Shown: positions 1,303-64,000, numbered from the stretch's first letter. The stretch: 64,000 nucleotides of DNA from Thermodesulfobacteriota bacterium (GCA_035325995.1 DAOKYU010000009.1:21286-85285); one strand, 5' to 3'. Numbers and translations are program-made. Notes: generated by a model not told the origin, from the sequence alone.

Positions 1303-2649
1303 ATGATAGTCAGTTTCTCACTCGAAAACTGGATGTCCTTCCGCAACCAGGTCACATTTTCGATGGTCGCCAGCAGGGAGCGCCAGCATGGAGACAGGGT
1401 TCCCAAGCTCGGCAAGTACCAGACGAGAGTTCTTCCGGTTGCGGCAATTTATGGCGGCAACGCGTCGGGCAAGACCAATTTTTTCAAGGCCCTGAGTTTC
1501 GCCAAGGCGCTGGTCGTCAAGGGCACCCAGCCCGACAGCCTGATTCCTGTCGAGCCGTTCCGGCTGGACGCCAAGGTGGCTGATCAGCCGTCACGGTTTG
1601 GCTTCGAGCTGCTGATCGACGAGATCATTTACGAGTTCAGCTTCGCGGTGACCCGCAAGGCGGTTCTGGAAGAGAAGCTGGTGGCCATTACCAGCACCAG
1701 TGAAAAGGTGCTCTACCACCGTCGGGACGGAAAGCCCAACTTCGATGATTCCCTGGCCAAGGACCAGTTCCTCCAGTTCGCCTTCAAAGGGACCCGGGAC
1801 AACCAACTCTTTCTGACCAACTCGGTTTCCCAGAAGGTCGACAATTTCCGGCCGGTCTACGACTGGTTCAAGGACACGCTCGAGCTGGTCGCGCCCGATT
1901 CCCGCTTCGAACCTTTCGAGCAGTTCCTCGACGAGGGGCACCCGCTCTACTCGACCATGAACGAGATGCTGCCGCAGCTCGACACCGGCATCGCGCACCT
2001 GGGTGGTGAGGAGATCCCTTTCGAGAACATTCCGCTGCCCGAGCCACTGAAGACCAAGCTGCAGGAAGACGTCAAGGAAGGCATGACCGTTCGTCTGCTG
2101 ACCGAGCCGATCAACGAGCGATTTGTGGTGACCCGCAAAGGTGGTGAACTGATCGCCAAGAAGCTGGTGACCTATCATCCGAAGGCGGACGGCACGGAAG
2201 CCAAGTTCGAGATCCGCCAGGAGTCGGACGGCTCACAGCGGGTGATCGATCTGCTGCCCGCGTTTCTTGAGCTGTCGGCCCAGGTCTCGAAGAAGGTCTA
2301 CGTGATCGACGAGGTCGACCGCAGCCTGCACACGCTGCTGACACGCAGATTGCTCGAAGCGTACCTCGCCAATTGCTCCACGGAAACCAGAACGCAGTTA
2401 CTGTTGACCACCCATGACGTGCTGCTCATGGATCAGCAACTGCTGCGCCGTGACGAGATGTGGGTAGCCGAAAGAGACGCCACCGGAGCTTCGAACCTGC
2501 TCTCTTTCAGCGAGTACAAGGATGTCCGGTACGACAAGGACATTCGCAAGAGCTACCTGCAGGGACGACTGGGTGGAATTCCCCGGATTCTGTTGGGAGG
2601 CGCTTTGACCAATCCCTGCCTCACCGAAGAAAGTGAGGGGGATAACTGA
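1303..2649 (+). CDS. AAA/ABC-type ATPase (AAA_21-like), defense-associated partner of RloB
   Basis: Walker [10 protein letters not shown] near N-terminus. ABC-type signature/D-loop region [12 protein letters not shown] and H-loop LLTTHDV. 4-bp ATGA overlap with downstream RloB-like gene. Confidence 0.7.
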
Positions 2650-3245
2650 TGCCACCGAATAGACGCAGATTCCAGAGACCCCTTGGCGAGCGTCGCTACC
2701 GCAAACTGTTCGTGATCGCGGTGGAAGGCGTGAAGACCGAGCCGCAGTATTTCGCCATCTTCAATGACCAGCAATCGGTGATCCGGGTGAACTGCCTCAA
2801 AGGCAGCCACGATAGCTCCCCGCCGCAGGTACTGAAGCGGATGGAGGACCATCTCCGGCAGGAGGAGCTGAGATCCTCCGACGAAGCCTGGCTCGTGGTG
2901 GACAAGGATCAGTGGACCGACGAACAGTTGGACCAGCTTCATGCCTGGGCTCAGGCACGCGACAATTACGGCTTCGCCCTCAGCAACCCCAAGTTCGAAT
3001 ACTGGTTGCTGCTTCATTTCGAGGACGGCACCGGCATCGCATCGTCACGGGATTGCAGCGACCGGCTGAAGCGGCATCTTCCCGGTTACGACAAGGGGAT
3101 CGACGCACGCAAGATCACCCGCGACCGAATCGATGAAGCCATCCGCCGCGGCAGGCTGCGCGACAATCCTCCTTGTGCCGACTGGCCACGAGCCCTTGGC
3201 GGCACCACGGTTTACAAGCTGGTCGAAAACATTCTCCAGGTCTGA
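2649..3245 (+). CDS. RloB-like TOPRIM-domain protein (putative nuclease partner of the ATPase)
   Basis: VIAVEGVKTEPQYF (TOPRIM Glu), WLVVDKDQW (DxD), NPKFEYWLLLHFE motif typical of the RloB/OLD-TOPRIM family. Translationally coupled to upstream ATPase. Confidence 0.65.
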   Translation: MPPNRRRFQRPLGERRYRKLFVIAVEGVKTEPQYFAIFNDQQSVIRVNCLKGSHDSSPPQVLKRMEDHLRQEELRSSDEAWLVVDKDQWTDEQLDQLHAWAQARDNYGFALSNPKFEYWLLLHFEDGTGIASSRDCSDRLKRHLPGYDKGIDARKITRDRIDEAIRRGRLRDNPPCADWPRALGGTTVYKLVENILQV

Positions 3246-7891: not shown

Positions 7892-8166
7892 AAGAGATCC
7901 TTCAGGAAAACAGCGATGCCGTCCGCCAGGCCGGTGAGGCCCTGGTCGAAATCGGCACCGAGCTGGCGGCGGGACGGATCGAGAACGCCCTCGGCCGTCT
8001 GGAAGCGGCCCAGCAGCAGTACCTGGCCTGGGCGGAGTTGGACCAGGCCATCATCGACATTCAGGAAGCTGTCCACGACCGGAAGAACACCCTGGCCGTG
8101 CAGCAGATCCTGACGGAACTGGTGGGCACCATCCTCGGAAACGCCTTGAGGACAGGAATGCATTGA
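7888..8166 (+). CDS. small hypothetical phage protein
   Basis: GGAGG RBS. ATGA-coupled to lipoprotein gene and stop overlaps TerL start. Confidence 0.4.
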   Translation: MKEILQENSDAVRQAGEALVEIGTELAAGRIENALGRLEAAQQQYLAWAELDQAIIDIQEAVHDRKNTLAVQQILTELVGTILGNALRTGMH

Positions 8167-48448: not shown

Positions 48449-48459
48449 GGAGGTGCCCC

Positions 48460-48981
48460 ATGAAGATTCTGATCCGCTCCACCACGCTGGACGGCGAACC
48501 GATTCCCGGCAGTGGGGAAACCATCCAGGCCGCCGACTGCCTCGAAGTTGTCGAGCTGATGCGCGGCCAGACGCCGTTTACCGCCAGCCGAGCGCCCCGG
48601 GACTACATGACCGAAGTGCTTTCCGGCATCGAAGGCGGGCCGCCCCAGCCATTGCCGGAGGAAGTAGCCGCTGCGGCCGCCGAGTTTCTCACCCGTCTGG
48701 CGCGGCACGGCCTGATCGAATTCCTGCCCGACGACAAGGCCAGCGATCCCTGGCCGGAACGCTTCCTCGAAGCTCTGGAAACGGTGCGGCTCTCCGGGCG
48801 CACCAACATGCTCGACCACCCGGAGGTGACCCGGCTGACCGCCGATATGGGCTACCCGGAGGTGGCCGAGTGGCTGGCGGACCACCGGCGCGAATACGCG
48901 GCCTTCGTCCTCGAAGGGACGAGACCGCTCGGTAAGAACTTCGGCGGCAAGGAGGACCCGGCTCCATGTGCGGACAAGTAG
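48460..48981 (+). CDS. hypothetical protein of the amidoligase operon
   Basis: Sandwiched and overlapping (16 nt) with the GATase gene. Confidence 0.4.
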   Translation: MKILIRSTTLDGEPIPGSGETIQAADCLEVVELMRGQTPFTASRAPRDYMTEVLSGIEGGPPQPLPEEVAAAAAEFLTRLARHGLIEFLPDDKASDPWPERFLEALETVRLSGRTNMLDHPEVTRLTADMGYPEVAEWLADHRREYAAFVLEGTRPLGKNFGGKEDPAPCADK

Positions 48982-49763
48982 GCATCATCTTCGGCCGCAA
49001 GCGCAGACGGCCCGACGAGCGGGATTACCTGCGCGAGCTCTTCATCCGCATGCTGCTGCACAGCGAGGAGCGCGGACCGCACGCCTCCGGTCTGGCCTGG
49101 CTCAAGACTGACGGCAGCCACCGCATCTTCAAACGGCCGATGCGGGCGCACGAGCTGGTCTACGAGAAGCCGTTCCAGGAGCTGCTCGGACAGGTCGACA
49201 ACGAGACTACCATCCTCATGGGGCACACCCGCTGGCGCACCCGGGGCAACGAGTTCAACAACCGCAACAACCATCCCATCCGGGCCGGGATCGTCATCGG
49301 CACCCACAACGGCACCATCTACAACGCCGATTATCTGTTCCGCCGTCTCGGGCTGCCGCGCTACGCCGAGGTGGACAGCGAGCTGATCTTCCGTCTGGCC
49401 GACCGCTTCGCGCCCGAAGGCCCCATCGACCAGGAGGGCCTGAAGAAGGCGCTTGCCCTCTGTCGCGGTCAGATGAGCGCCGTGCTGGCCTCACGGCTCG
49501 ACCCCGGCACCATCACCGTACTCAAGGGCAACAAGCCACTCTGCCTGCGCATCCACCGCCAACACCGGGTGGTGCTCTACGCCTCGGACGACGCCTTCAT
49601 CGACTTCGCCGTGGACTTTGATCCGGGCTGGCGCGAGCTGGAGGTGCCGCCCATGACCATGCTCACCATCCGCCACGAGGATGTGCGGGCCATCGACAAC
49701 AGCGAATTCCGCTTCATACCCCAGGAGCGCAAAGGGACACTGCCCGAAGGAGTGAATGCATGA
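48966..49763 (+). CDS. class-II (Ntn) glutamine amidotransferase-like protein
   Basis: N-terminal MCGQVGI (Cys2 nucleophile), Ntn-hydrolase-like layout. Confidence 0.65.
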   Translation: MCGQVGIIFGRKRRRPDERDYLRELFIRMLLHSEERGPHASGLAWLKTDGSHRIFKRPMRAHELVYEKPFQELLGQVDNETTILMGHTRWRTRGNEFNNRNNHPIRAGIVIGTHNGTIYNADYLFRRLGLPRYAEVDSELIFRLADRFAPEGPIDQEGLKKALALCRGQMSAVLASRLDPGTITVLKGNKPLCLRIHRQHRVVLYASDDAFIDFAVDFDPGWRELEVPPMTMLTIRHEDVRAIDNSEFRFIPQERKGTLPEGVNA

Positions 49764-50299
49764 ACATTGGAGACAGCGTAAAGCTGAACACAAACCCGGA
49801 AGACAGTCCCGAGACCATCCTCCGACTCTTCGTCTACGGCACCCTGAAACGGGGCTACTGGAACCATCAACGCTTCTGCGCCCAGGCCCGCAGCATCGAA
49901 CCGGCCGTGGTCTGGGGCAGACTCTATCATCTCCACGCCGGATTCCCGGCCCTCGAGGTGCCCGAAGGTCTGATCCTGGCCAGGGGCACCGCCGATCCAC
50001 TGGCCGACGCCCGCAGGCAGCAGGAGATCGACACGCCACGCTTCGGCCGCCCGACTGGGGACTGGGATCTGATCCATGGGGAACTGGTGACCTTCACCGA
50101 TCCGCAGCGCGACCTGCCGCCCATCGACCTGCTGGAAGGCTTCCGACCCGGCGGGCACAGCATGTACCAGCGGGTGATGGTGGCTTCGCTACAAGGCACA
50201 ACCGCATGTGCGGTATGGGTTTACATCATGTGTGCGCCTCAAAACGGCCACCGGGTCACCAACGACAATCAGGCCGTTTTTTGGAAAAGTCGGCACTAA
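49760..50299 (+). CDS. gamma-glutamyl cyclotransferase (GGCT/AIG2-like)
   Basis: FVYGTLKRGYWNH motif. ATGA-coupled to the GATase gene. Confidence 0.7.
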   Translation: MNIGDSVKLNTNPEDSPETILRLFVYGTLKRGYWNHQRFCAQARSIEPAVVWGRLYHLHAGFPALEVPEGLILARGTADPLADARRQQEIDTPRFGRPTGDWDLIHGELVTFTDPQRDLPPIDLLEGFRPGGHSMYQRVMVASLQGTTACAVWVYIMCAPQNGHRVTNDNQAVFWKSRH

Positions 50300-50436
50300 T
50301 CGGCACAAAACGCTTGATTTTGGTAATCCGCCAATGTAATTTGTGGAGGTTAATTTGCGGCACTGTGTCCGGATTTCGGGTTTCCCGGAGACCTTCGGGC
50401 TTTTACCGAAAACATGATGAACGAAGGACGAAGGCT

Positions 50437-50640
50437 ATGGATGAGAGATGGCTGACGGTCGATGACATTTGCAAATATCTGAATGTAAGCAACGAGACGG
50501 TCTACAAGTGGATCGAACAACGGGCTATGCCCGGTCATCGCGTCGGCCGTCGCTGGATGTTCAAACAAGACGAAGTGGACGAATGGGTCCGCTCCGGCGG
50601 TGCGGCTGACAAATCCGATAAGCCGGACACCGAGCAGTAA
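50437..50640 (+). CDS. excisionase/AlpA-family HTH DNA-binding protein
   Basis: 67 aa, LTVDDICKYLNVSNETVYKWIEQRAMPGHRVGRRWMF. Direct repeats (G/T)TAATTTG(T/C)GG upstream. Confidence 0.6.
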   Translation: MDERWLTVDDICKYLNVSNETVYKWIEQRAMPGHRVGRRWMFKQDEVDEWVRSGGAADKSDKPDTEQ

Positions 50641-50649
50641 GGAGCGACC

Positions 50650-54899
<4,250 letters not shown>

Positions 54900-54946
54900 A
54901 TGGGTCACGGGTCGCGAGTCATGAGTCACGAGTCGAAGGATTGAAG

Positions 54947-55321
54947 ATGGCAAGGATTGAAAAGTTCGAGGATATCGAAGCATGGCAGCGGGCAAGACAG
55001 CTCGCCAAAGCCGTGTATGCCGTTACATCGGAAGGAAAGTTCGCTCGTGATTTCGGACTGCGTGACCAGATTCAAAGAGCAGCCGTTTCGGTGATGTCCA
55101 ACATTGCCGAAGGATTTGAGCGTGGTGGTGATGTTGAATTCCGGCGATTCCTTGCCATCGCAAAAGGCTCTGCCGGTGAAGTCAAAGCGCAGCTTTATGT
55201 GGCTCTCGATGCCGGGCTGATTGACCAGACTGCTTTCGACTCGCTTTACAAATCAGCCACAGAAACAGGAAACCTCATTGGCGGTTTCATGAAATATCTG
55301 AGCAAAGGGATTAACAAATGA
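54947..55321 (+). CDS. four-helix-bundle protein (23S rRNA-intervening-sequence protein family)
   Basis: FEDIEAWQRARQLAKAVY...SNIAEGFERG...AKGSAGEV family hallmarks. Confidence 0.6.
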   Translation: MARIEKFEDIEAWQRARQLAKAVYAVTSEGKFARDFGLRDQIQRAAVSVMSNIAEGFERGGDVEFRRFLAIAKGSAGEVKAQLYVALDAGLIDQTAFDSLYKSATETGNLIGGFMKYLSKGINK

Positions 55322-58164
55322 GCAGACATCAAGACCAGCCAACGCTGTTTCCGACAGAAGGACCCGCGACCCGCGACTCGGGACCCGTGACCTGCTTAGG
55401 CATGACATTCGAGAACGACGAAACCCGCCGCGCCCACTTTACCGAGGAGCTGCGTAAGAAGCTGCAGGACCCGGAGTTCCGCAAGATCGAAGGCTTTCCC
55501 ATCGGCAGCGATGAGGACATCCTGAACCTGAGCGATCCGCCGTATTACACCGCCTGTCCGAATCCGTGGATCGCCGACTTCATCACCGAGTGGGAGGCGC
55601 AGAAGCCGGAACAGCCCGAAGGCAATCACTACCACCGTGAGCCTTTTGCGACCGACGTGAGCGAAGGAAAAACCGATCCAATTTATCAGGCACATGCATA
55701 TCACACAAAGGTGCCTCATAAAGCCATCATGCGTTACATCCTCCACTACACCCAACCAGGAGATATCGTTTTTGATGGCTTTGCTGGAACTGGTATGGCT
55801 GGCGTTGCTGCTCAACTTTGTTCAGATAAAAATGCAGTAGCAAGCCTGGGATACAGAATTGGTGCTGATGGCATCGTGTTTAAAACAGAGGAAGATGAAA
55901 ACGGGAAACAAATTAGCTCGCCATTCTCAAAGATAGGGCTTCGTTATAGCATCTTGAACGATTTATCTACAGTTGCAGCATTTGTTGCCTCAAATTACAC
56001 GATCCCTTTCGACACAGGAATCTTCAAAAAAGAATCTTCCAGTCTCCTGAAAACACTGCGGAAAAGAATAGGCTGGATGTACGAAACCCTCCATAGTGAT
56101 GGGAAGACCAAAGGCATAATTAACTTTACTGTATGGAGCGAGGTTTTTGCGTGTCATCAATGTGGTTCTGACATCGTTTTTGTGGATGAAGCATTTGACC
56201 ATGATGAAAAGAAGGTCAGAGATGTTTTTCCATGTCCCTCTTGCGCGGCTGAGTGCTCAAAAAACAGTCTGCAGCTACTCTACGAATCTGTTTTTGATGC
56301 TGCCTTAAATGAAACTATTCAAGCGCCTAAGCGAGTACCTGTCTTAATAAACTACAGCATTGGAAAAAACAAATACGACAAAAAACCAGATAGCTTGGAC
56401 CTGGAGATTATTGCGAAGATTAACTCCATCGACCGACATCCAAACGTCCCAACAATGGAACTCCCACCGATGCAGATGACTCGTGTGGGAAGAATGCAAC
56501 CAGCGAAAATTACACATATCCACCATTTCTTTAACAAAAGAGCCTCGCATGCTTTGGGCGAAATGTGGAAAATTGCGTTAGAGTCACCTACGCATCGAAT
56601 GAAAAACATGATGCTGTTTTTTGTCGAGCAAGCAATATGGACTGCATCTGTCTTAAATAGATATCGTCCGTCTGGATACTCACAAGTCAATCAGTATCTA
56701 GCTGGAGTTTTTTATGTCCCATCTCAAAACGCAGAACCAAGTCCTTGGTATGTACTGAACGGAAAATCGACTCGATTGCCGAAGGCTTTTACTGAATTTG
56801 AGCAGTCTCATTCAACTTTAATCAACAATGGGGATTGCGGCGCTTTGCCAGTGCCAGATGCATGCATTGATTACATCTTCACGGACCCACCTTTTGGCGA
56901 AAACATCTACTATTCAGACCTGAACATACTCATAGAGTCTTGGCATAAAGTTAAGACTAACGAAAAGCCTGAAGCTATTGTCGACCGAGTTCGAGGTAAG
57001 TCACTAATTGACTACCAGAAACTAATGACCGATTGCTTCAAGGAGTATTATCGAATCCTTAAACCTGGACGATGGATGACGGTTGAGTTTCACAACTCAA
57101 AAAATAGCGTCTGGAATACTATACAAGAAGCTTTGCAGCATGCAGGATTTGTTGTTGCTGATGTAAGGACCCTTGATAAAAAACAAGGTTCTTTTCAGCA
57201 GGTAAGCAGCGCAAGCGCCGTCAAACAGGATTTGGTCATTTCTGCATATAAGCCAAATGGTGGTCTTGAAAATCGATTTAAGAGCGAAGCTGGCACAGAA
57301 AGTGGTGTATGGGATTTTGTTCGGACACACTTAAAGCAACTTCCAGTTTTTTCCTACAAAGGCGGAAGAGCGGAAGCAATTGTTGAACGTCAAAATTACC
57401 TCTTGTTTGACCGAATGGTCGCCTTTCACGTCCAACGAGGTGTACCTGTCCCAATCTCTTCTTCTGAGTTTTACCTTGGGCTTGCGCAGCGATTTGCTGA
57501 GCGTGATGGAATGTTCTTCCTCGCAGACCAGGTTGCTGAATATGATAGAAAGCGGATGCTGTGCAAAGAACTGATTCAAATCTCGCTGTTCGTATCTGAT
57601 GAAGCATCTGCAATACAGTGGCTACGAAACTCTCTAAAAAGCAAGCCGCAGACATTCCAGGAACTACACCCCCTGTTTATGCGCGAAATTAATGGTTGGA
57701 ACAAAAACGAGCAACCGTTGGAATTATCGCTTTTACTCGAACAAAACTTTCTGCGCTACGACGGCAAAGGCCCCGTGCCCGAGCAGATCCACGCCTACCT
57801 CTCCACCAACTGGAAAGAGCTGCGTAACCTGCCGAAGGATGATCCGACCCTGGTCGCCAAGGCTCGTGACCGTTGGTACGTGCCCGACCCCAACAAGGCG
57901 GGCGACCTGGAGAAGCTGCGCGAGAAGGCGCTGCTCAAGGAGTTCGAGGAATACAAAGAGGTCAAGAAGAAGCTCAAGGTCTTCCGCCTGGAAGCTGTCC
58001 GCGCCGGATTCAAGAAAGCCTGGCAGGAACGCGACTACGCCGTCATCGTCGCCGTGGCCGACAAAATTCCCAACAACGTCCTGGAAGAAGATCCCAAGCT
58101 GCTCATGTGGTACGACCAGGCGGTAACAAGAATGGGCGATGGTAATGAAGGGAGGCTGTTATGA
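55318..58164 (+). CDS. N6-adenine DNA methyltransferase with internal Zn-ribbon (COG1743-like); mosaic GC composition
   Basis: FDGFAGTGMAG (motif I), CHQCGSD...CPSCAAEC Zn ribbon, FTDPPFGENIYYSD (motif IV). Core 55.67-57.74 kb is AT-rich, both ends GC-rich. Confidence 0.7.
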   Translation: MSRHQDQPTLFPTEGPATRDSGPVTCLGMTFENDETRRAHFTEELRKKLQDPEFRKIEGFPIGSDEDILNLSDPPYYTACPNPWIADFITEWEAQKPEQPEGNHYHREPFATDVSEGKTDPIYQAHAYHTKVPHKAIMRYILHYTQPGDIVFDGFAGTGMAGVAAQLCSDKNAVASLGYRIGADGIVFKTEEDENGKQISSPFSKIGLRYSILNDLSTVAAFVASNYTIPFDTGIFKKESSSLLKTLRKRIGWMYETLHSDGKTKGIINFTVWSEVFACHQCGSDIVFVDEAFDHDEKKVRDVFPCPSCAAECSKNSLQLLYESVFDAALNETIQAPKRVPVLINYSIGKNKYDKKPDSLDLEIIAKINSIDRHPNVPTMELPPMQMTRVGRMQPAKITHIHHFFNKRASHALGEMWKIALESPTHRMKNMMLFFVEQAIWTASVLNRYRPSGYSQVNQYLAGVFYVPSQNAEPSPWYVLNGKSTRLPKAFTEFEQSHSTLINNGDCGALPVPDACIDYIFTDPPFGENIYYSDLNILIESWHKVKTNEKPEAIVDRVRGKSLIDYQKLMTDCFKEYYRILKPGRWMTVEFHNSKNSVWNTIQEALQHAGFVVADVRTLDKKQGSFQQVSSASAVKQDLVISAYKPNGGLENRFKSEAGTESGVWDFVRTHLKQLPVFSYKGGRAEAIVERQNYLLFDRMVAFHVQRGVPVPISSSEFYLGLAQRFAERDGMFFLADQVAEYDRKRMLCKELIQISLFVSDEASAIQWLRNSLKSKPQTFQELHPLFMREINGWNKNEQPLELSLLLEQNFLRYDGKGPVPEQIHAYLSTNWKELRNLPKDDPTLVAKARDRWYVPDPNKAGDLEKLREKALLKEFEEYKEVKKKLKVFRLEAVRAGFKKAWQERDYAVIVAVADKIPNNVLEEDPKLLMWYDQAVTRMGDGNEGRLL

Positions 58165-59240
58165 AAAAAGGCCGCGATATACCTATTAAGATCAGGCGGA
58201 TAACAATACGCAATTACAAGGGAATCGACGAGCTTGAGATGGATTTCCCGACGCCCAGAATGCCCGACGATCCGGATATTCTTGTCATGGGCAGCAGAAA
58301 CGGCTTGGGCAAGACGTCGATTATTGAATGCTGCTCATTGTTGTTGCTCGCGCTCACTTTGAGGGAAGAGCGATTCAAGCTGCGGGACCGGTACTCGATT
58401 GTCGACGTTCCTGACTTGCTCATTAAGGCTGGGTCTCATTTTGCCGAGATTGGCGGCGACATCGTTATTGGTGATGAATCAATAGCCGTTCAAATCAGGA
58501 TAGATCGCCACGGAGTCGTGAAAATATCCGGCGAATCGCTCCGCGAAAAGGTGCTCGAGAACGAGCTGTTCGACCCCGAAAGCGAAACAGACGATTTCAT
58601 CAAGGCGATTTGTGGGTTCACGCCAAATCCCGTTGTAGAAAATACATTTCTGTTGTTCCACAGCTATCGGAAGGTTCAAGAAGGAAATCCGGAGCTTGGG
58701 ATGATGGTTGATCGAGGACGATCACCGAGACGCCCGCCGTTCCCGCGCTATGAATTTCCGATGAGCGCCTTCAAGTTAAGGATACTGCGTTCCCTGATGG
58801 GCAAGGCCAACCTGTTCGAGTTTGTGGAGGACCAGGAGCCAGACGAGACCATCGAAAAACTCAACGAGCTTGTGCGGTTTTATGCGGGTGGCACGATCAG
58901 CAAGCTACGGCCTTCGTCGGACAATACCGTTGATTTCCGAGTTAAGCCTATAAATGGAGATGAGTCTTTTACTTTTGATGGCTTGAGTTCCGGCCAGAAG
59001 GAGATTATCTCCACGCTTTTCCTTATTTGGTATCACACCAAAAACAACCCCTCTGTGGTGTTCATCGACGAACCAGAGCTTCATCTTAATGCACAATGGC
59101 ATCGCAGCTTCGTTAAAAATCTCGTGAGCCTGGCACCGCAAAACCAGTACGTCATGGCGACTCATTCCGAAGATGTTATGGATTCGGTCGGTGAGGATCG
59201 CCGCGTTCTCCTTCTGAACAACCAGGAGGGGGATAAATGA
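58161..59240 (+). CDS. AAA_15/21 ABC-type ATPase (AriA-like)
   Basis: Walker A GSRNGLGKTS, D/H-loop VVFIDEPELHLN...MATHSEDV. Low-GC gene. Confidence 0.55.
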   Translation: MKKGRDIPIKIRRITIRNYKGIDELEMDFPTPRMPDDPDILVMGSRNGLGKTSIIECCSLLLLALTLREERFKLRDRYSIVDVPDLLIKAGSHFAEIGGDIVIGDESIAVQIRIDRHGVVKISGESLREKVLENELFDPESETDDFIKAICGFTPNPVVENTFLLFHSYRKVQEGNPELGMMVDRGRSPRRPPFPRYEFPMSAFKLRILRSLMGKANLFEFVEDQEPDETIEKLNELVRFYAGGTISKLRPSSDNTVDFRVKPINGDESFTFDGLSSGQKEIISTLFLIWYHTKNNPSVVFIDEPELHLNAQWHRSFVKNLVSLAPQNQYVMATHSEDVMDSVGEDRRVLLLNNQEGDK

Positions 59241-60130
59241 TCAGCGTAAAAACAGGCATTCGTGCGGAAGAGGTTCGGCTCCAAAGTCAGCATGTGCTTT
59301 TTGTCGAAGGAAAGGACAGGAACTCGGTCGATCCTAATGTTTTGGGTGAACTGTTTGACCGGAGCATAAAAATTGAGACTCTTGGACCATCGTTTTCCGT
59401 AAGAAGTGTTGCGGAAGCTCTCTTCAGCTACCACCCAACCTACTATTTTTTGATCGACCGAGATCATCACGATAATGACTTCATAGATCGTTGCTGGGGA
59501 AACTTTCCTGACCCCGCAACACACAATCTCTTGGTTTGGCGTCGTCGTGAGATTGAGAACTACTTCTTGGAGCCGGAGTACCTGTTCCAATCGAAGTTTT
59601 GTCGTGTCAGCCAGGACGAGTTGGAACGGAAGGTTCTGCAGTGCGCCAATGAGCGATTATTTCTCGATGCGGCTAACCATGTAGTGACGTCAATTCGTGA
59701 AGAGCTCAAGCGGAACTGGATTCAGAAGTTCTCCAACCCTGCAGAATTTTCAAGTAGGGAAACAGCCCTGCAGAGGCTGAAAAGCGCCAATGAATTCGAT
59801 CAGCATCGCACGAATGTGGATCAAAAAGTCTCTGCCGATGAGGTGGAACGTCGTTTCCACGAATACCTTGGAATCATGACGGGCGGGCAAGAGCAACTCG
59901 CTTTCGGGGTTGGCGATTGGCTTCATATGGTCCAGGGCAAGAAGGTTCTTGCTCAAGTCATCAATTCGGGCTGCTTTCAAGTGCAGGCAACTGATGGGAC
60001 GTCCGTTACGGGTCGAGAGAAAATCAATGAAGTCGTAAAGGATCTACTTCAAAAAGATCCCAGCATACAACCCGCCGACTTTGTTGCCCTGAAGCAGCTC
60101 ATCGACACAAGAATCAATGGAGCGAGCTGA
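59237..60130 (+). CDS. TOPRIM (DUF4435-like) nuclease partner (AriB-like)
   Basis: VLFVEGKD, YFLIDRD (DxD), REIENYFLEPEYL motifs. ATGA-coupled to the ATPase gene. Confidence 0.5.
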   Translation: MISVKTGIRAEEVRLQSQHVLFVEGKDRNSVDPNVLGELFDRSIKIETLGPSFSVRSVAEALFSYHPTYYFLIDRDHHDNDFIDRCWGNFPDPATHNLLVWRRREIENYFLEPEYLFQSKFCRVSQDELERKVLQCANERLFLDAANHVVTSIREELKRNWIQKFSNPAEFSSRETALQRLKSANEFDQHRTNVDQKVSADEVERRFHEYLGIMTGGQEQLAFGVGDWLHMVQGKKVLAQVINSGCFQVQATDGTSVTGREKINEVVKDLLQKDPSIQPADFVALKQLIDTRINGAS

Positions 60131-60227
60131 CTATGAGGCGCGTTACATTCAAAACCTCACCAATAATCGACATAAACTTGTCCGACATGGGTGCTTGTAA
60201 TTGCTTAGCGTGGATTGGAGGGGAATA

Positions 60228-62063
60228 ATGTTTCTCAGGGAAGTCATTCTAAAAAATTTTCGAGGATACAAAAACGAACACCGAATCCCCATCGACCAGC
60301 TAACAGCGTTTATCGGGAAAAATGATGCTGGGAAGTCCTCCATCTTTGATGCTTTGGCCGTCTTTTTTGATCATCCATTGGGAAAAATCGACGCTTCAGA
60401 TATCTGTGTTCACGCCGGGGCCAACGGCGAATTAAGAATCGGCTGCGTTTTTTCGGATTTTCCTGATTCGATCACAATTGACGCATCTTCGGTCACAACG
60501 CTTGCAGACGAATATCTGCTGAATGTCGGTGGTGCGCTTGAGATCCATAAAGTCTACGAATTTTCGGACGGAACGCTAAAGAAGCCAAAAGTATTTGCAA
60601 TTGCCAACCATCCAACGGCAAATGGCTTCGATGGCTTGTTATCAAAAAAGAACGCTGAATTGAAAAAAGCGGGCGAAGCCGCGAATATCGATGCCGGAGT
60701 CGATAAACGTTCTAATGCAGCCCTTAGAAGGGCCATTTGGGGAAGTGCAGACGATTTGAAATTGGGCCATTCCGAAATCCAACTGGATAAGGAAGATGCC
60801 AAAGCCATCTGGGAACAGCTCTCCAAATACCTGCCCGAATACGCCCTTTTCCGAGCAGACCGCCCGTCAACAGACGAAGACTCAGAAGTCCAGGACCCAC
60901 TAAAGGTCGCCATAAAACAGGCAATCGAAGAAGTACAAGCTGAACTGGACGCGGTGAAGGAAAAGGTTAAAGCACGCACGCTTGATGTGGCCAATCGTAC
61001 CATCACGAAGCTTGCTGATTTTGATAGTACGCTTTCATCGCAGCTCAACCCGAATTTCAAATCTGATCCAAAATGGGACGGCCTTTTCAAACTCTCTCTA
61101 ACTGGAGACGATGAAATACCAATCAATAAGAGGGGCAGCGGTGTCCGGAGATTGGTTCTATTCAGCTTTTTCCGCGCTGAAGCTGAACGGCTTCGAGAAG
61201 AGCATAAAAAAGGGAATATTATTTACGCAGTGGAAGAGCCGGAGACTGCGCAGCATCCAGACAACCAGCGAAAAGTAATCGAAGCATTGCAGGCTATCGC
61301 CGAGGCGGATGGCTGCCAAGTTATGCTTACCACGCACGTCCCGGCATTGGCGTCACTACTTCCAATCAATTCAATTCGATATGTATGTTCTCACGACCTA
61401 AATGGCAGAGATGTCTGTATCGCAGACGATGATGTAATCAAGACCGTTGTCGCTGACCTGGGAATCATACCTGACAAGCGCGCAAAGGTTTTGGTGTGTG
61501 TAGAAGGTCCGCATGACCTTCAATTTTTAAGACGGATCAGTAGCTTGCTCCGGGCGGAGGACGACTCCGTCATTGATATGTTTGTCGACCCAAGAGTCGC
61601 TCTGGTCGTCTTGGGTGGAAGCACTTTGAAGGAATGGGTAAATCAGCATTACTTGAAAAATGTAGGACTTCCAGAGGTCCACATTTACGACCGTGATGAG
61701 CTGAAAAATGGGAAGTACAAATATCAGGACGATAAAGATGCGGTAAACGCAAGAGGTGACGGATCTATTGGGTTCCTGACCGCAAAGCGGGAGATGGAGA
61801 ATTACCTCCACATTGATGCAATTAGTGAAGCGTTGCAGCCTGTTGTTGGCTTCAACTTCACTTTTGCGCTTTCAGACGACTGCGATGTTGAAACCGAGAT
61901 AAAAACACTGCTGAACGGTCAAGGAAAGATTCAGAGGCGTTCGATTAAACATTGGCTTAACGAAGACGCGGCAAGTCGAATGAACATAGATCGCTTGAAA
62001 GAGCGAAACGGCTATGACGAGATCAAAGGTTGGTTTACCGAGATCGCAAATAGGGTCGTTTGA
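60228..62063 (+). CDS. class-1 OLD-family ATP-dependent endonuclease (ABC ATPase + TOPRIM)
   Basis: Walker A GKNDAGKSSIFDAL. C-terminal TOPRIM VLVCVEGPHDLQFL ... REMENYLH. Low-GC. Confidence 0.7.
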   Translation: MFLREVILKNFRGYKNEHRIPIDQLTAFIGKNDAGKSSIFDALAVFFDHPLGKIDASDICVHAGANGELRIGCVFSDFPDSITIDASSVTTLADEYLLNVGGALEIHKVYEFSDGTLKKPKVFAIANHPTANGFDGLLSKKNAELKKAGEAANIDAGVDKRSNAALRRAIWGSADDLKLGHSEIQLDKEDAKAIWEQLSKYLPEYALFRADRPSTDEDSEVQDPLKVAIKQAIEEVQAELDAVKEKVKARTLDVANRTITKLADFDSTLSSQLNPNFKSDPKWDGLFKLSLTGDDEIPINKRGSGVRRLVLFSFFRAEAERLREEHKKGNIIYAVEEPETAQHPDNQRKVIEALQAIAEADGCQVMLTTHVPALASLLPINSIRYVCSHDLNGRDVCIADDDVIKTVVADLGIIPDKRAKVLVCVEGPHDLQFLRRISSLLRAEDDSVIDMFVDPRVALVVLGGSTLKEWVNQHYLKNVGLPEVHIYDRDELKNGKYKYQDDKDAVNARGDGSIGFLTAKREMENYLHIDAISEALQPVVGFNFTFALSDDCDVETEIKTLLNGQGKIQRRSIKHWLNEDAASRMNIDRLKERNGYDEIKGWFTEIANRVV

Positions 62064-64000
62064 TGAATCAATCGCTTTGGCAATATAGCACCGTTCATAA
62101 CAGCGCCTGCAAGGTCATCGAGGAACAGATCTTGTGGGGGCAGACGGTGTGCCGTGTCTGGTTGCCGAACCAGGACGCGGTGGTGCGCGTGCCCCGCTCC
62201 GCTTTGCGGCCGCTGAGTGCCGACCTGCAGCCGGAGATCGAGGCCGGACGCATTGCCTATGTGGCCGCCGCAGCCAAGGTAGCCGAGGTGCTTGAAGGCT
62301 CCACCAGCGCCACCGACGGTCATGTGCTGCTGGCTCCCATGGAGTCCAACGTCATTCCGCTGCCGCACCAGATCCACGCCTTGTCCCGTGCCATCTCCGG
62401 CGACCGCGTGCGCTACCTGCTGGCCGACGAGGTGGGTCTCGGTAAGACCATCGAGGCCGGTCTGGTCATGCGCGAGCTAAAACTGCGCGGGCTGGTTCGG
62501 CGAATCCTGGTCGTCTCTCCCAAAGGTATCGCTACCCAGTGGGTTGCGGAAATGCAGACCCATTTCAACGAGCAGTTCCAGCTTGTGCTGGGCGACGACA
62601 TCGGCACCTTGCAGCGTCTGGCTCCAGGGGCTGACCAGCGGAACTCAGCCTGGTCGATGTTCGATCAGGTCATCGTTTCCCTGGATTCGGTCAAGCCCAT
62701 GGACAAGCGGCGCGGTTGGACCGCCGAGCGCGTTGCCGAATACAACCGCAGCCGGTTCGAGGATCTGATTACCGCCGGTTGGGATCTGGTGGTGGTGGAC
62801 GAAGCGCACCGCCTGGGCGGCAGCACCGATCAGGTCGCCCGCTACAAACTCGGCAAGGGCCTGGCGGAAGCCGCGCCCTATGTGCTGCTCCTTTCGGCGA
62901 CTCCCCACCAGGGGAAGACCGACGCCTTTCATCGCCTGATGAACCTGCTGGATGACGACGCCTTTCCGGATATGGACAGCGTCTCCCGTGAGCGGGTGGC
63001 CCCGTATGTCATCCGCACCGAAAAGCGCAAGGCCATCGATGCCGACGGCAAGCCGCTCTTCAAACCCCGGCGCACGCAGATGGCCCCGGTGGCCTGGGAG
63101 AGCCGTCATCACCTGCAGCAACTCCTCTACGAGGCAGTGACCGACTATGTGCGCGAGGGCTACAACCAGGCCCTGCGCGAGAAGAAGCGCCACATCGGCT
63201 TCCTGATGATCCTGATGCAGCGTCTGGTGGTCTCCAGCACCCGGGCGATCCGCACTACGCTGGAACGGCGACTTGCCGCACTCAAGGAAGGCGAACAGCA
63301 GGCCAGCCTGCGCCTGGCGGAGCTGGAAAACGGTACGGGGGGATCGGAAAGCCCAGACGATGAAATGGCCGAGCTCTACGACATGGACGGCCAGGAGCTG
63401 CTCGATGAGCTGCTGAAGTCTCATGTGTCGGCTCTGCAGAGCGAAGGCAGCCATGTAGAGACCCTGCTCGATGCGGCGGTTCGCTGTGAACAGGCTGGAC
63501 CGGACGCCAAGGCCGAGGCGTTGATCGAGTGGGTCTACGAGCTGCAAGCCGAGGAAAACGAGCCGGACCTGAAGGTGTTGATCTTCACCGAGTTCGTGCC
63601 CACCCAGCAGATGCTGAAGGAGTTTCTGGAAGCCCGGGGCATATCGGTCGTCACCCTGAACGGCTCCATGGATATGGAGGAACGCAAGCAGGCCCAGGAC
63701 GCCTTCCGCAAATCGCACCGCGTGCTGGTTTCCACCGACGCGGGCGGTGAGGGTCTGAACCTGCAGTTTGCCCATGTCATCATCAACTACGACATCCCCT
63801 GGAACCCGATGCGGCTGGAACAGCGAATCGGCCGTGTGGACCGTATCGGGCAGCCCAAGAAGGTGCGGGCAATCAATTTCGTGTTTGAGGATTCGGTCGA
63901 GTTCCGGGTCCGCGAAGTGCTGGAGCAGAAGCTCTCGGTGATCTTCGACGAGTTCGGTATCGACAAGACCGGCGACGTACTCGACTCCGCCCAAGCCGGT
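62063..64000 (+). CDS. SNF2-family helicase (3' end beyond window)
   Basis: LLADEVGLGKT (motif I), VVDEAHRL (DEAH), LLLSATP (III). Helicase-C region with INYDIPWNP...QRIGRVDRIGQ. Confidence 0.75.
   Translation, partial: MNQSLWQYSTVHNSACKVIEEQILWGQTVCRVWLPNQDAVVRVPRSALRPLSADLQPEIEAGRIAYVAAAAKVAEVLEGSTSATDGHVLLAPMESNVIPLPHQIHALSRAISGDRVRYLLADEVGLGKTIEAGLVMRELKLRGLVRRILVVSPKGIATQWVAEMQTHFNEQFQLVLGDDIGTLQRLAPGADQRNSAWSMFDQVIVSLDSVKPMDKRRGWTAERVAEYNRSRFEDLITAGWDLVVVDEAHRLGGSTDQVARYKLGKGLAEAAPYVLLLSATPHQGKTDAFHRLMNLLDDDAFPDMDSVSRERVAPYVIRTEKRKAIDADGKPLFKPRRTQMAPVAWESRHHLQQLLYEAVTDYVREGYNQALREKKRHIGFLMILMQRLVVSSTRAIRTTLERRLAALKEGEQQASLRLAELENGTGGSESPDDEMAELYDMDGQELLDELLKSHVSALQSEGSHVETLLDAAVRCEQAGPDAKAEALIEWVYELQAEENEPDLKVLIFTEFVPTQQMLKEFLEARGISVVTLNGSMDMEERKQAQDAFRKSHRVLVSTDAGGEGLNLQFAHVIINYDIPWNPMRLEQRIGRVDRIGQPKKVRAINFVFEDSVEFRVREVLEQKLSVIFDEFGIDKTGDVLDSAQAG

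What the first reader, a model, noticed from the sequence alone, without database searches (positions are those of the whole stretch)
58161..62063. Low-GC insert with PARIS-like ATPase+TOPRIM pair and a class-1 OLD nuclease nested inside the defense operon
Three AT-rich genes sit between the MTase and the SNF2 helicase of the surrounding GC-rich system, each joined by ATGA overlaps. They are an ABC-type ATPase, a DUF4435-like TOPRIM protein with EGKD, DxD and EIENY motifs, and a full OLD ATPase-TOPRIM fusion. With the ATPase/RloB pair at 1.3-3.2 kb, the window carries three independent ATPase-TOPRIM modules. Defense genes embedded within another defense system may be hitchhiking or may be functionally coupled.
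Basis: partly seen in the sequence, partly recalled or inferred. Interest (0 to 1): 0.6.

Follow-up and report, generated by a model that had tools for sequence, protein, structure and literature searches.

The report
Two anti-phage nuclease modules inside BREX
Three genes sitting inside a type-3 BREX anti-phage operon are two separate, horizontally acquired "backup" defence modules (a PARIS-like ATPase/nuclease pair and a single-gene OLD nuclease) occupying a slot that in related bacteria holds many other defence systems; this is real, but it is a phenomenon already described in the literature.

Summary
Between the type-3 BREX methyltransferase pglXI (55318-58164) and the SNF2 helicase brxHII (from 62063) lie g1, an ABC ATPase (58161-59240), g2, a DUF4435-type TOPRIM protein (59237-60130), and g3, an OLD-family ATPase-TOPRIM fusion (true start 60228, end 62063). 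All three have low GC (0.47-0.50, against about 0.62 in the flanks).

Corrections:
- g2 and g3 do not overlap. A 97-nt spacer separates them.
- The low-GC tract also covers the pglXI target-recognition region and a small four-helix-bundle gene.
- The "insert" is two independent cassettes, not one.

In relatives, g1 and g2 are always adjacent, either stand-alone or in this BREX slot. g3 occurs alone in the same slot or stand-alone. Thiocapsa sp. KS1 has g1-g2-brxHII without g3.

In a survey seeded on BrxHII, 64 of 65 closely related loci carry cargo at this junction. The junction boundaries lie within about 15-25 nt of the same point across all cargo types. Cargo includes Ppl, IetAS, Gabija, Thoeris, AbiU, HEC-03 and PDC-S19.

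Embedding of PARIS-like and OLD modules in BREX is already published (NAR 2026; Payne 2024; Went 2024). This is a new member of a known kind, of modest interest.

The parts
50650..51165 (+). brxF (type-3 BREX core)
   Evidence: PADLOC BrxF 1e-66
51162..54899 (+). brxC/pglY ATPase (type-3 BREX core)
   Evidence: Pfam DUF6079 E=0; PADLOC BrxC E=0
54896..55321 (+). Four-helix-bundle ('23S rRNA IVP') gene. Low-GC cargo in a second, less used slot between brxC and pglXI.
   Evidence: Pfam PF05635 3e-35 and TIGR02436. GC 0.50. Present in 10 of 54 relatives; 35 of 54 have brxC and pglXI adjacent.
55318..58164 (+). pglXI (BrxXI) N6-adenine methyltransferase. The central region, about 55815-56865, is hypervariable (target-recognition region) and has the lowest GC. 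The conserved 3' end is the left anchor of the cargo slot.
   Evidence: PADLOC PglXI E=0. GC 0.445 for 55498-57690. No DNA similarity to relatives across 55815-56865. Left junction conserved across cargo types.
58161..59240 (+). g1: ABC ATPase, 359 aa, AriA/PtuA-like. Sensor half of a PARIS-like pair.
   Evidence: Pfam AAA_15 and AAA_21. PADLOC AriAB 3.5e-23 and AriA 1.2e-20. PDB hits to PtuA and to AriA (7e-5) over the C-terminal ABC motifs only. Directly upstream of g2 wherever the upstream sequence is present, in loci from many bacterial and archaeal lineages.
59237..60130 (+). g2: DUF4435-type TOPRIM protein, 297 aa, AriB-like. Presumed nuclease effector.
   Evidence: PADLOC AriAB 3.7e-9 and AriB 3.3e-6, over the full model length. 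DUF4435 in 22 of 25 family members. Invariant EG..D, DRD and ExENY motifs fall on the beta1-E and beta3-DxD positions of the AF2 model.
60131..60227 (.). 97-nt spacer between the two cassettes. Positions 60140-60213 are shared only with the other pair+OLD loci. The last ~14 nt (GGAGGGGAATAATG) match the pglXI/OLD junction of OLD-only loci.
60228..62063 (+). g3: OLD-family nuclease, 611 aa. ABC ATPase (residues 1-374) plus C-terminal TOPRIM/helical region (about 420-611). Single-gene, class-1-type module.
   Evidence: Pfam AAA_15 2.4e-76. PADLOC Old 4.9e-23 and many GajA models. Foldseek: Ts OLD 6p74 1e-7, GajA 1e-7, Bp OLD C-terminal region 6nk8 with TM 0.59 and prob 1.0. Invariant E426-G, D488-x-D490 and E522-x-E524-N-Y. 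Never seen next to a UvrD helicase or RT.
62063..64000 (+). brxHII SNF2 helicase (type-3 BREX core), runs off the window. From about codon 6 (TGGCAATAYAGCACC...) it is the right anchor of the slot.
   Evidence: PADLOC PDLC02500 E=0. Full gene of 966 aa, followed by pglZ and brxA, in L086. Right junction.
1303..3245 (+). AbiL-type pair (AAA_21 ATPase 1303-2649 + RloB 2649-3245), the third ABC-ATPase/TOPRIM module in the window. It is not part of the BREX locus.
   Evidence: Pfam AAA_21 2e-48 and RloB 2e-38. PADLOC AbiLi 2e-76 and AbiLii 2e-23.

Best explanation
The locus is a type-3 BREX operon (brxF-brxC-pglXI-brxHII-pglZ-brxA). The junction between its methyltransferase gene pglXI and its helicase gene brxHII serves as a cargo slot for other anti-phage modules. 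In this window the slot holds two independent modules stacked head to tail.

1. A two-gene PARIS-like (class-4 OLD-type) module: g1, an ABC ATPase, and g2, a DUF4435 TOPRIM nuclease.
2. A single-gene class-1-type OLD nuclease, g3, which is an ABC ATPase fused to a TOPRIM domain.

Shown:
- Both modules were acquired horizontally. They have low GC, and the locus is a mosaic in which different segments have different closest relatives.
- They sit within about 15-25 nt of the same left and right boundary points, between the conserved pglXI 3' end and the conserved brxHII 5' end.
- They are joined to the BREX genes by overlapping stop and start codons, with no promoter or terminator signal above chance. 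They are therefore most likely co-transcribed with BREX.

Inferred by analogy with characterised relatives: they act as second-line, abortive-infection defences. The ATPase senses a phage counter-defence factor, such as an Ocr-like DNA mimic that blocks BREX by binding PglX (for PARIS), or RecBCD inhibition (for P2 Old). It then licenses the TOPRIM nuclease to cut host nucleic acid (tRNA in PARIS), stopping the infection.

Also inferred: cargo is exchanged by homologous recombination in the conserved flanking BREX genes.
For: Gene identities.

g1 and g2 form an obligate two-gene unit. They are adjacent in essentially all of 85 loci from many bacterial and archaeal lineages. Some are stand-alone (L003, L005) and some lie between pglXI and brxHII (L007, L012, L013, L015, L029, L030 and others).

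g3 is independent of g1g2.
- It is absent from all 80 g2-seeded genome loci.
- It is present alone in the same slot (L092, L093, L095, L146-149, and Methanosarcina L177).
- It is also found stand-alone beside a resolvase and transposases, or in an IetAS/ApeA island.

Thiocapsa sp. KS1 has g1 (96%) - g2 (90%) - brxHII (96%) with about 20 nt where the window has 60121-62069.

The locus is a mosaic.
- brxF through the pglXI N-terminus is 93-94% identical to L125/L140.
- The pglXI C-terminal half plus g1g2 is 87% identical to L129.
- OLD plus brxHII is 97.4% identical to L095, starting at 60214.

Slot survey seeded on BrxHII: 64 of 65 loci are occupied, in 18 architectures. Cargo includes an NsnB/HEC-03B-like ATPase with a partner, Ppl, IetAS, Gabija, HEC-03, PDC-S19, AbiU, Thoeris and a PD-T7-3-like gene. 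Junction boundaries are the same for all cargo types.

Stacks of two modules recur elsewhere: g1g2+HEC-03 in L027/L031, Ppl plus the NsnB-like pair in L151, and g1g2+Thoeris in L129.

There is no promoter or terminator excess, and stop/start overlaps are present.

Literature: PARIS-like OLD-ABC/TOPRIM modules embedded in BREX in at least 1242 taxa, interpreted as an anti-Ocr backup (PMC12839542); the embedding concept (10.1101/2024.01.29.577857); PARIS mechanism and OLD classes (PMC11464382).
Against: - No functional data exist for these proteins.
- g1 is about 100 residues shorter than E. coli AriA (359 against 464 aa). It matches AriA only over the C-terminal ABC motifs and scores better against PtuA. 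PARIS-like assembly and triggering are therefore an extrapolation.
- The g2 structural model is only moderate (pLDDT 72.9, with the TOPRIM part at 55-65). It found no significant PDB match, AriB included.
- The g3 C-terminal domain is not recognised by Pfam or PADLOC HMMs. It is assigned as TOPRIM by predicted fold and motifs only, and the model's ATPase core (residues 204-399) is low confidence.
- An embedded Salmonella PARIS showed no activity against the phages or Ocr homologues tested (PMC11341690), so embedding does not guarantee the proposed backup role.
- The survey covers a narrow clade (BrxHII at least 89% identical) and contains near-duplicate metagenome contigs. The figure 64/65 overstates the number of independent observations.
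Confidence: 0.8

Rival explanations
1. g1, g2 and g3 form one integrated three-gene system. Two ATPases and two TOPRIM nucleases would work together, for example with g3 regulating or amplifying the g1/g2 response.
For: The same three-gene order recurs in a second lineage at about 84% DNA identity (L090, L091, L145), including the spacer. All genes lie on one strand within one operon.
Against: Each module occurs without the other in the same slot and elsewhere. In the second lineage g1 carries an in-frame stop at codon 178 while g2 and g3 stay intact. g1g2 is also found stacked with Thoeris or HEC-03 in place of OLD.
Confidence: 0.07
2. Near-universal occupancy of the slot means that type-3 BREX in this clade functionally needs a cargo module. 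The cargo would serve, for instance, as the executing nuclease or abortive arm, so the modules would be interchangeable parts of BREX rather than passengers.
For: 64 of 65 close relatives carry cargo at this junction and only one is empty. Cargo genes are translationally coupled to pglXI and brxHII. PMC12839542 argues for 'backup effector' integration.
Against: The cargo is mechanistically heterogeneous: nucleases, the IetAS protease system, Thoeris NADase signalling, and PDC-S19 of unknown function. All of these modules also exist outside BREX. An empty site with intact flanking genes exists (L139). High occupancy can arise simply because homologous replacement through the flanks is easier than precise deletion. 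The sample is a narrow clade containing duplicates.
Confidence: 0.12
3. g3 is a fused PARIS (AriAB-type, class 4) rather than a class-1 OLD nuclease.
For: Its TOPRIM region carries the same EG..D / DxD / ExENY motif series as the DUF4435 protein g2, and hhalign puts these motifs in register. The best PADLOC hit for the N-terminal half is an AriA model at 5e-64. Fused ariAB genes are known (PMC11464382).
Against: hhalign probability is 1.6% with E 0.03. DUF4435 and the AriB/AriAB models do not hit the C-terminal domain. Foldseek ranks Ts OLD, GajA and the Bp/Xcc OLD C-terminal regions at E 1e-7 to 5e-3, and AriB only at E 1.2. The PADLOC AriA model PDLC02979 behaves like the generic AAA_15 profile.
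Confidence: 0.12
4. The genes are selfish, addiction-type (toxin-antitoxin-like) passengers, or decaying remnants. They would persist because they are hard to delete from inside an operon and would contribute little to defence.
For: g1 has a nonsense mutation in the sister lineage. The embedded Salmonella PARIS showed no detectable activity. Composition is foreign.
Against: In this window all three ORFs are intact, with every Walker, signature and TOPRIM catalytic residue conserved. The families are highly conserved (65-100% identity) across phyla, implying purifying selection. Homologous module types are experimentally validated defences.
Confidence: 0.1

Closest known systems
OLD-ABC/TOPRIM ('PARIS-like') backup effector modules embedded in BREX loci (Nucleic Acids Res 2026, PMC12839542)
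   Same: The same phenomenon: ABC-ATPase + TOPRIM modules encoded inside the BREX operon and flanked by core genes. [quoted passage not shown]
   Different: In the sections I read, that survey does not describe this particular locus, the stacking of a split pair with a fused OLD, or the near-saturated pglXI|brxHII slot with fixed junctions that I see in this clade.
Salmonella Typhimurium D23580 type-1 BREX with embedded PARIS ariAB (Went et al. 2024, PMC11341690)
   Same: An ATPase + DUF4435 TOPRIM pair nested within a BREX operon. The same hypothesis of complementary defence against Ocr.
   Different: That system is type-1 BREX, with canonical AriA/AriB at a different position in the operon. 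Here the system is type-3 BREX, the ATPase is shorter (359 aa) and divergent, and there is an additional OLD gene.
PARIS AriA/AriB of E. coli B185 (class-4 OLD; PDB 8UX9, 8V46; PMC11464382)
   Same: Two-gene ABC ATPase + DUF4435 TOPRIM architecture with conserved TOPRIM acidic residues.
   Different: AriA is 464 aa, with the IS1/IS2 insertions needed for hexamer formation and trigger binding. g1 is 359 aa and aligns to AriA only over about 70 C-terminal residues (E 7e-5). g2 gives no sequence or fold match to AriB in the PDB searches.
Class-1 OLD nucleases (phage P2 Old; Thermus scotoductus OLD, PDB 6P74)
   Same: A single polypeptide with an N-terminal ABC ATPase and a C-terminal TOPRIM, and no conserved partner gene. 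Ts OLD is the best sequence hit (1e-9 to 4e-11) and the best fold hit (1e-7).
   Different: The sequence match covers only the ATPase. The TOPRIM region is not recognised by current Pfam or PADLOC profiles and carries an ExENY motif resembling DUF4435. Here the gene is embedded in BREX rather than in a prophage.
[quoted passage not shown] 2024, bioRxiv 10.1101/2024.01.29.577857)
   Same: The general principle that multi-gene defence systems carry other defence systems nested between their genes. Several cargo types found in the slot here (HEC-03, PDC-S19, PDC-M55-like) are candidates named by that study.
   Different: That work is a global catalogue. The locus-level picture here (one junction, many cargo types, nearly always filled) is a specific instance.

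Membership tests
PARIS (class-4 OLD, AriA/AriB) | Adjacent, co-oriented genes for an AAA_15/21 ABC ATPase and a DUF4435 TOPRIM protein | tested here: met
   g1 hits AAA_15 and AAA_21. DUF4435 is the only Pfam family hit for g2 and is found in 22 of 25 family members. The two genes share a 4-nt overlap. They are adjacent in essentially all relatives.
PARIS (class-4 OLD, AriA/AriB) | Significant match to AriA and AriB profile models | tested here: inconclusive
   PADLOC: g1 hits AriAB at 3.5e-23 and AriA at 1.2e-20, with PtuA models scoring about as well. g2 hits AriAB at 3.7e-9 and AriB at 3.3e-6. The window's g2 is below Pfam's DUF4435 cut-off, 18.2 against 27 bits. PADLOC and DefenseFinder system-level calls could not be run.
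PARIS (class-4 OLD, AriA/AriB) | AriA architecture: about 464 aa with IS1/IS2 coiled-coil insertions supporting a hexameric scaffold | tested here: not met
   g1 is 359 aa. It aligns to AriA (8ux9/8v46) only over residues 274-340 (E 7e-5) and scores better against PtuA. The Walker A to signature-motif distance is about 100 residues shorter, by direct reading of the sequence.
PARIS (class-4 OLD, AriA/AriB) | Activation by anti-restriction proteins (Ocr) and tRNA cleavage by the TOPRIM subunit | not testable with these tools
   Needs phage challenge and RNA cleavage assays.
Class-1 OLD nuclease | Single polypeptide with an N-terminal ABC ATPase and a C-terminal TOPRIM catalytic region | tested here: met
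   AAA_15 covers residues 1-374 at 2.4e-76. The AF2 C-terminal region has pLDDT 85-94. Foldseek hits: 6p74 at 1e-7; 6nk8 (Bp OLD C-terminal region) with TM 0.59 and prob 1.0; 6njv. Invariant E426, D488, D490, E522 and E524.
Class-1 OLD nuclease | No conserved partner, which separates it from class 2 (UvrD-like helicase, Gabija) and class 3 (reverse transcriptase) | tested here: met
   Every g3-family context examined lacks an adjacent UvrD helicase or RT. The SNF2 helicase downstream is the BREX core gene and is present whatever the cargo.
Class-1 OLD nuclease | Recognition of the TOPRIM region by OLD-specific sequence profiles (Pfam Toprim_OLD, PADLOC Old, full length) | tested here: not met
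   The C-terminal 227 residues alone give no Pfam hit at E<=10 apart from a chance match, and only weak PADLOC PDC-M55B/M38B hits. The PADLOC Old model aligns only to residues 225-396.
Type-3 BREX | Core gene set brxF, brxC, pglXI, brxHII, pglZ, brxA in one operon | tested here: met
   brxF 1e-66, brxC E=0, pglXI E=0 and brxHII E=0 in the window. pglZ and brxA follow brxHII on the identical contig L086.
Gabija (class-2 OLD) | GajA OLD nuclease paired with a GajB UvrD-like helicase | tested here: not met
   No UvrD-type gene lies next to g3. True Gabija (GajA 5e-263 + GajB 3e-269) does occur as alternative cargo in other loci such as L111, and it is a different protein cluster.
AbiL (window 1303-3245) | AAA_21 ABC ATPase followed by an RloB-family protein | tested here: met
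   Pfam AAA_21 2e-48 and RloB 2e-38. PADLOC AbiLi 2e-76 and AbiLii 2e-23.

The most novel reading that the evidence does not exclude
In this clade of type-3 BREX the pglXI|brxHII junction is a dedicated, essentially always-filled cassette position. Interchangeable abortive-infection or nuclease modules are translationally coupled to the BREX genes there. BREX-3 would then be functionally dependent on whatever module sits in the slot, working as a sensor/modification chassis with a swappable executioner, rather than merely tolerating passengers.
Probability: 0.12. Interest if true: 0.7.

Novelty: new member of a known kind. Interest (0 to 1): 0.3.

Why it matters
Practical value:
- The window gives a cleanly resolved example of defence systems nested inside BREX. 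It has exact cassette boundaries, natural "empty", "pair only", "OLD only" and "pair + OLD" alleles, and a sister allele with a nonsense mutation in the ATPase.
- Those natural variants would make good material for testing whether embedded PARIS-like and OLD modules really back up BREX against anti-restriction proteins.
- The slot could be mined for uncharacterised cargo, such as the ~500-aa C6 protein and the partners of the NsnB-like ATPase.

Conceptual value: little is added beyond published surveys.

Tried and rejected
- I first took 60229 as the g3 start, which was out of frame. The start is 60228.
- Sequence searches of g2 and of its family profile against PDB chains found nothing.
- Foldseek of the g2 model against the PDB gave no hit with E<0.1, and AriB was not retrieved.
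- The g3 C-terminal domain alone gave no meaningful hit against Pfam or PADLOC.
- A profile-profile comparison of the g2 family with the g3 family was not significant, at probability 1.6%. I do not claim that the g3 TOPRIM is of the DUF4435 type.
- A viral-contig scan for g3 returned a single 46%-identical locus with no BREX context. It was not pursued.
- The promoter/terminator scan found fewer or no more sites than shuffled controls. There is no evidence for an internal promoter in the 97-nt spacer.
- I considered and rejected three readings: that g1g2 or g3 are core BREX-3 genes (occupancy 5/65 and 6/65); that the three genes are one system (each occurs without the other); and that a site-specific att-like repeat flanks the cargo (inspecting the junctions by eye showed no shared repeat, only conserved coding sequence of the flanking genes).
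Full report
**What is in the sequence**

The + strand from 50.6 kb to the window end is one gene array.

| Gene | Coordinates |
|---|---|
| brxF | 50650-51165 |
| brxC | 51162-54899 |
| four-helix-bundle gene | 54896-55321 |
| pglXI | 55318-58164 |
| g1 | 58161-59240 |
| g2 | 59237-60130 |
| g3 | 60228-62063 |
| SNF2 helicase | from 62063, runs off the window |

- PADLOC models identify BrxF (1e-66), BrxC (E=0), PglXI (E=0) and BrxHI|BrxHII (E=0).
- On an identical metagenome contig (L086, ENA ERZ794915 NODE_2, 788 kb) the helicase is 966 aa. It is followed by pglZ, brxA and a Hachiman pair.
- The surrounding system is therefore a type-3 BREX.

**Junctions**

- pglXI/g1 and g1/g2 overlap by ATGA.
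- g2 and g3 do not overlap. g2 stops at 60130, and g3 most plausibly starts at ATG 60228, just after GGAGG. That leaves a 97-nt spacer.
- g3 and brxHII share one base (TGATG).
- A promoter/terminator scan of 54.5-62.6 kb found no more sites than shuffled sequence. Co-transcription with BREX is the simplest reading, and it is an inference.

**Composition**

| Region | GC | GC3 |
|---|---|---|
| g1 | 0.50 | 0.60 |
| g2 | 0.49 | 0.53 |
| g3 | 0.47 | 0.49 |
| brxC | 0.62 | 0.85 |
| brxHII | 0.63 | 0.80 |
| pglXI middle (55498-57690) | 0.445 | 0.43 |
| four-helix-bundle gene | 0.50 | 0.49 |
| last ~470 nt of pglXI | 0.56 | 0.75 |

- The low-GC tract is wider than the finding states, because it includes the middle of pglXI and the four-helix-bundle gene.
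- The locus is therefore a mosaic rather than a single insert.

**Gene identities: g1**

- g1 (359 aa) is an ABC ATPase (Pfam AAA_15 9e-17, AAA_21 2e-12).
- Its PADLOC hits are AriAB 3.5e-23, PtuA about 1e-22 and AriA 1e-20.
- Against PDB sequences it matches PtuA and AriA only over the signature, Walker B and H-loop region (AriA E 7e-5).
- It is about 100 residues shorter than the 464-aa AriA.

**Gene identities: g2**

- g2 (297 aa) matches PADLOC AriAB (3.7e-9) and AriB (3.3e-6) over the full length of those models.
- Its own Pfam DUF4435 score is below the cut-off. However, DUF4435 is the only family hit, and 22 of 25 family members hit it (best 7.6e-8).
- E24-G25, D27, D74-R75-D76 and E105-x-E107-N108-Y109 are invariant.
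- In the AF2 model they fall at the end of strand 1, after strand 3, and in the helix after strand 4, which is the TOPRIM pattern.
- The model is only moderate, and Foldseek and PDB sequence searches found nothing significant.

**Gene identities: g3**

- g3 (611 aa) has AAA_15 over residues 1-374 (2.4e-76).
- It matches Thermus scotoductus class-1 OLD by sequence in the ATPase (1e-9; 4e-11 with the family profile).
- Its C-terminal 227 residues are invisible to Pfam and PADLOC.
- The AF2 model is confident in that region (pLDDT 85-94). Foldseek ranks Ts OLD (1e-7), GajA (1e-7 to 5e-4), retron Eco8, and the isolated C-terminal regions of Burkholderia OLD (TM 0.59, prob 1.0) and Xanthomonas OLD. 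AriB scores only E 1.2.
- Invariant residues fit a TOPRIM active site: E426-G427, D430, G463-G464, D488-x-D490 and E522-x-E524-N-Y.
- g3 is thus an OLD-family ATPase-TOPRIM fusion.

**The third module**

The pair at 1303-3245 is AAA_21 + RloB, i.e. AbiL. Burman et al. group AbiL with the ABC-ATPase/TOPRIM systems (PMC11464382).

**Comparative evidence: two cassettes, not one**

- The g2 family has more than 600 members at 35-96% identity.
- In 85 loci from many bacterial and archaeal lineages, g1 lies directly upstream of g2 wherever the upstream sequence is present.
- Some pairs are stand-alone, for example in Desulfobotulus mexicanus and a Binatia MAG. About one in six sit between pglXI and brxHII of type-3 BREX.
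- g3 was absent from all 80 genome loci found through g2.
- The g3 family is 68-100% identical across very different organisms. It occurs in three settings:
  - alone in the same BREX slot (L092, L093, L095, L146-149, and Methanosarcina sp. T3 L177);
  - stand-alone beside a resolvase and transposases (L175, L176);
  - in an IetAS/ApeA island (L178).
- It is never next to a UvrD helicase or a reverse transcriptase, which is the genomic criterion for class 1.
- Thiocapsa sp. KS1 carries a pglXI remnant, then g1 (96%), g2 (90%) and brxHII (96%). About 20 nt there correspond to window 60121-62069. This is the "relative lacking the insert" for g3.
- The window's exact three-gene order recurs in identical contigs (L086-L089). 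It also recurs in a sister lineage at about 84% DNA identity (L090, L091, L145), where g1 has an in-frame stop at codon 178.

**The slot**

To avoid bias toward the cargo, I seeded a metagenome scan on BrxHII. I then mapped pglXI, cargo and brxHII on the 80 loci returned, all with BrxHII at least 89% identical.

- Of 65 loci containing both anchors, 64 carry 1.0-5.9 kb between pglXI and brxHII. One (L139) is empty.
- The cargo falls into 18 architectures:

| Cargo | Loci |
|---|---|
| NsnB/HEC-03B/PDC-M55A-like ABC ATPase with an unknown partner | 18 |
| Ppl | 11 |
| g3-type OLD | 6 |
| IetAS | 5 |
| unannotated ~500-aa protein (C6) | 5 |
| HEC-03 | 5 |
| g1g2 | 5 |
| PDC-S19 | 4 |
| Gabija | 3 |
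| PD-T7-3-like | 2 |
| AbiU | 1 |
| Thoeris (stacked with g1g2 in L129) | 1 |
| Schlafen-like gene (stacked with Ppl) | 4 |
| three-gene C25-C27 cassette (no PADLOC match) | 1 |

(Loci with stacked modules are counted under each module.)

- The boundaries are the same for every cargo type, to within about 15-25 nt.
  - Conserved sequence ends at ...ATGTGGTACGACCAGGCGGTAACAAGAATGGG, the last codons of pglXI.
  - It resumes at TGGCAATAYAGCACCGTTCATAAC, about codon 6 of brxHII.
  - The cargo's first gene usually starts within about 15 nt of the pglXI stop.
- Stacks of two modules are common: L151, L129, L027, L031 and L007.
- The window itself is a recombinant:
  - brxF through the pglXI N-terminus is 93-94% identical to L125/L140.
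  - pglXI 55815-56865 matches nothing.
  - The pglXI C-terminal half plus g1g2 is 87% identical to L129.
  - OLD plus brxHII is 97.4% identical to L095, beginning at 60214.
- The last 14 nt of the spacer match the pglXI/OLD junction of OLD-only loci. That is what one would expect if the OLD cassette came from such a locus.
- I saw no att-like repeats. Homologous recombination through the conserved flanking genes is the most economical mechanism, and it is an inference.
- A second slot, brxC|pglXI, is used less often. It is adjacent in 35 of 54 loci, holds the four-helix-bundle gene in 10, and holds other cargo in about 9.

**How it most likely works**

Shown:
- The gene identities.
- The independence of the two modules.
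- Horizontal origin.
- Fixed slot boundaries.
- Operon integration.

Inferred from characterised relatives:
- The ATPases act as sensors and the TOPRIM domains as effectors in abortive-infection-type backup defence.
- In PARIS, AriA holds AriB until the anti-restriction protein Ocr binds. Released AriB then cleaves host tRNA-Lys (PMC11464382).
- Ocr blocks BREX through PglX (cited in PMC11341690 and PMC12839542).
- P2 Old responds to RecBCD inhibition.
- A phage that disarms BREX would thus trip one of the embedded modules.

Caveats:
- g1 lacks about 100 residues relative to AriA, so a PARIS-like hexameric assembly is uncertain.
- The embedded Salmonella PARIS has shown no activity so far.

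**Comparison with what is known**

Embedding of defence genes in BREX is established.
- BrxU in pEFER and PARIS in Salmonella BREX.
- A systematic "guilt-by-embedding" study of BREX, DISARM, RM and Hma.
- A 2026 survey reporting TOPRIM-linked OLD-ABC modules inside BREX in at least 1242 taxa, explicitly interpreting PARIS-like modules as anti-Ocr backups.

The present locus is a further example. It is in type-3 BREX, with a divergent short-ATPase PARIS-like pair stacked on a class-1-type OLD. Two features are, as far as I could read, not spelled out in those papers: the near-complete occupancy of one junction, and its fixed boundaries in this clade. Both are variations on the published theme. 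They also rest on a narrow, partly redundant sample.

**Verdict**

- Novelty: new member of a known kind.
- Interest: 0.3.

Noticed in passing
window 55815-56865 (inside pglXI): The central part of the BREX methyltransferase has the lowest GC in the region (0.42-0.45). It has no DNA similarity to any relative, although the flanking parts of the gene and the neighbouring genes are 87-94% identical. PglXI proteins are only 55-65% identical among loci whose BrxC and BrxHII are at least 90% identical. This looks like swapping of the target-recognition region.
   Followed up: partly
window 54896-55321: A low-GC four-helix-bundle ('23S rRNA intervening sequence protein', TIGR02436) gene sits between brxC and pglXI, with overlapping stops and starts. 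This junction is a second cargo slot. It is adjacent in 35 of 54 relatives, holds this gene in 10, and holds other cargo in about 9, for example a Schlafen/AlbA_2 gene plus a CbiA-like ATPase in L090 and a 597-aa unknown in Methanosarcina L177.
   Followed up: partly
L090:7934-9013, L145:6099-7178 (also L091): In the only other lineage with the pair+OLD arrangement, the g1 ATPase has an in-frame stop at codon 178 (window E178), while g2 and g3 remain intact. It is seen in three independent assemblies, so it is unlikely to be an assembly error.
   Followed up: yes
L001 and L002 (about 8.8-12.4 kb): A close BREX-3 relative has pglXI-g1-g2-ThsA(Macro)-ThsB(TIR)-pglZ with no brxHII helicase at all. 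L129 has the same cargo with brxHII present.
   Followed up: no
L103 and L113, right junction upstream of brxHII: A locus carrying IetAS and a locus carrying an unrelated unannotated ~500-aa gene (cluster C6) have nearly identical ~40 nt (three mismatches) immediately before brxHII. In L103 this is the 3' end of ietS. It suggests a scar left by cargo replacement.
   Followed up: no
L097, L098, L100 and others (cargo clusters C0+C1 and C0+C16); L113 and others (C6): The commonest cargo in the slot is a ~640-aa NsnB/HEC-03B/PDC-M55A-like ABC ATPase with a ~350-aa partner that has no PADLOC match. Another recurrent cargo is a ~500-aa protein with no match. These are uncharacterised candidate defence genes.
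   Followed up: no
window 8163-46969: A run of phage structural genes lies between the AbiL pair and the BREX locus: large terminase at 8163, portal at 9765, a Mu F-like 1529-aa protein at 11312, tape-measure at 25892 and a DUF4815 protein at 43421. A prophage therefore adjoins the defence island.
   Followed up: partly
window 47489-49763: An Amidoligase_2 gene (47489-48448) and a GATase_6 gene (48966-49763) lie just upstream of an HTH_17 protein (49756-50640) and brxF. Their function here is unknown, and PADLOC did not recognise them.
   Followed up: no
L086:17501-21836 (beyond the window's 3' end): On the contig identical to the window, BREX is followed directly by HamA + HamB (Hachiman) and a pP_pnuc_1 gene. 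L092 has the same BREX+Hachiman pairing, with an integrase upstream.
   Followed up: no
window 60228-62063 and 59237-60130: g3's TOPRIM region and the DUF4435 protein g2 share the same ordered motif set (EG..D, DxD, ExENY), although profile comparison is not significant. Whether this OLD subfamily's nuclease domain is closer to DUF4435 than to classical OLD TOPRIM remains unresolved.
   Followed up: partly
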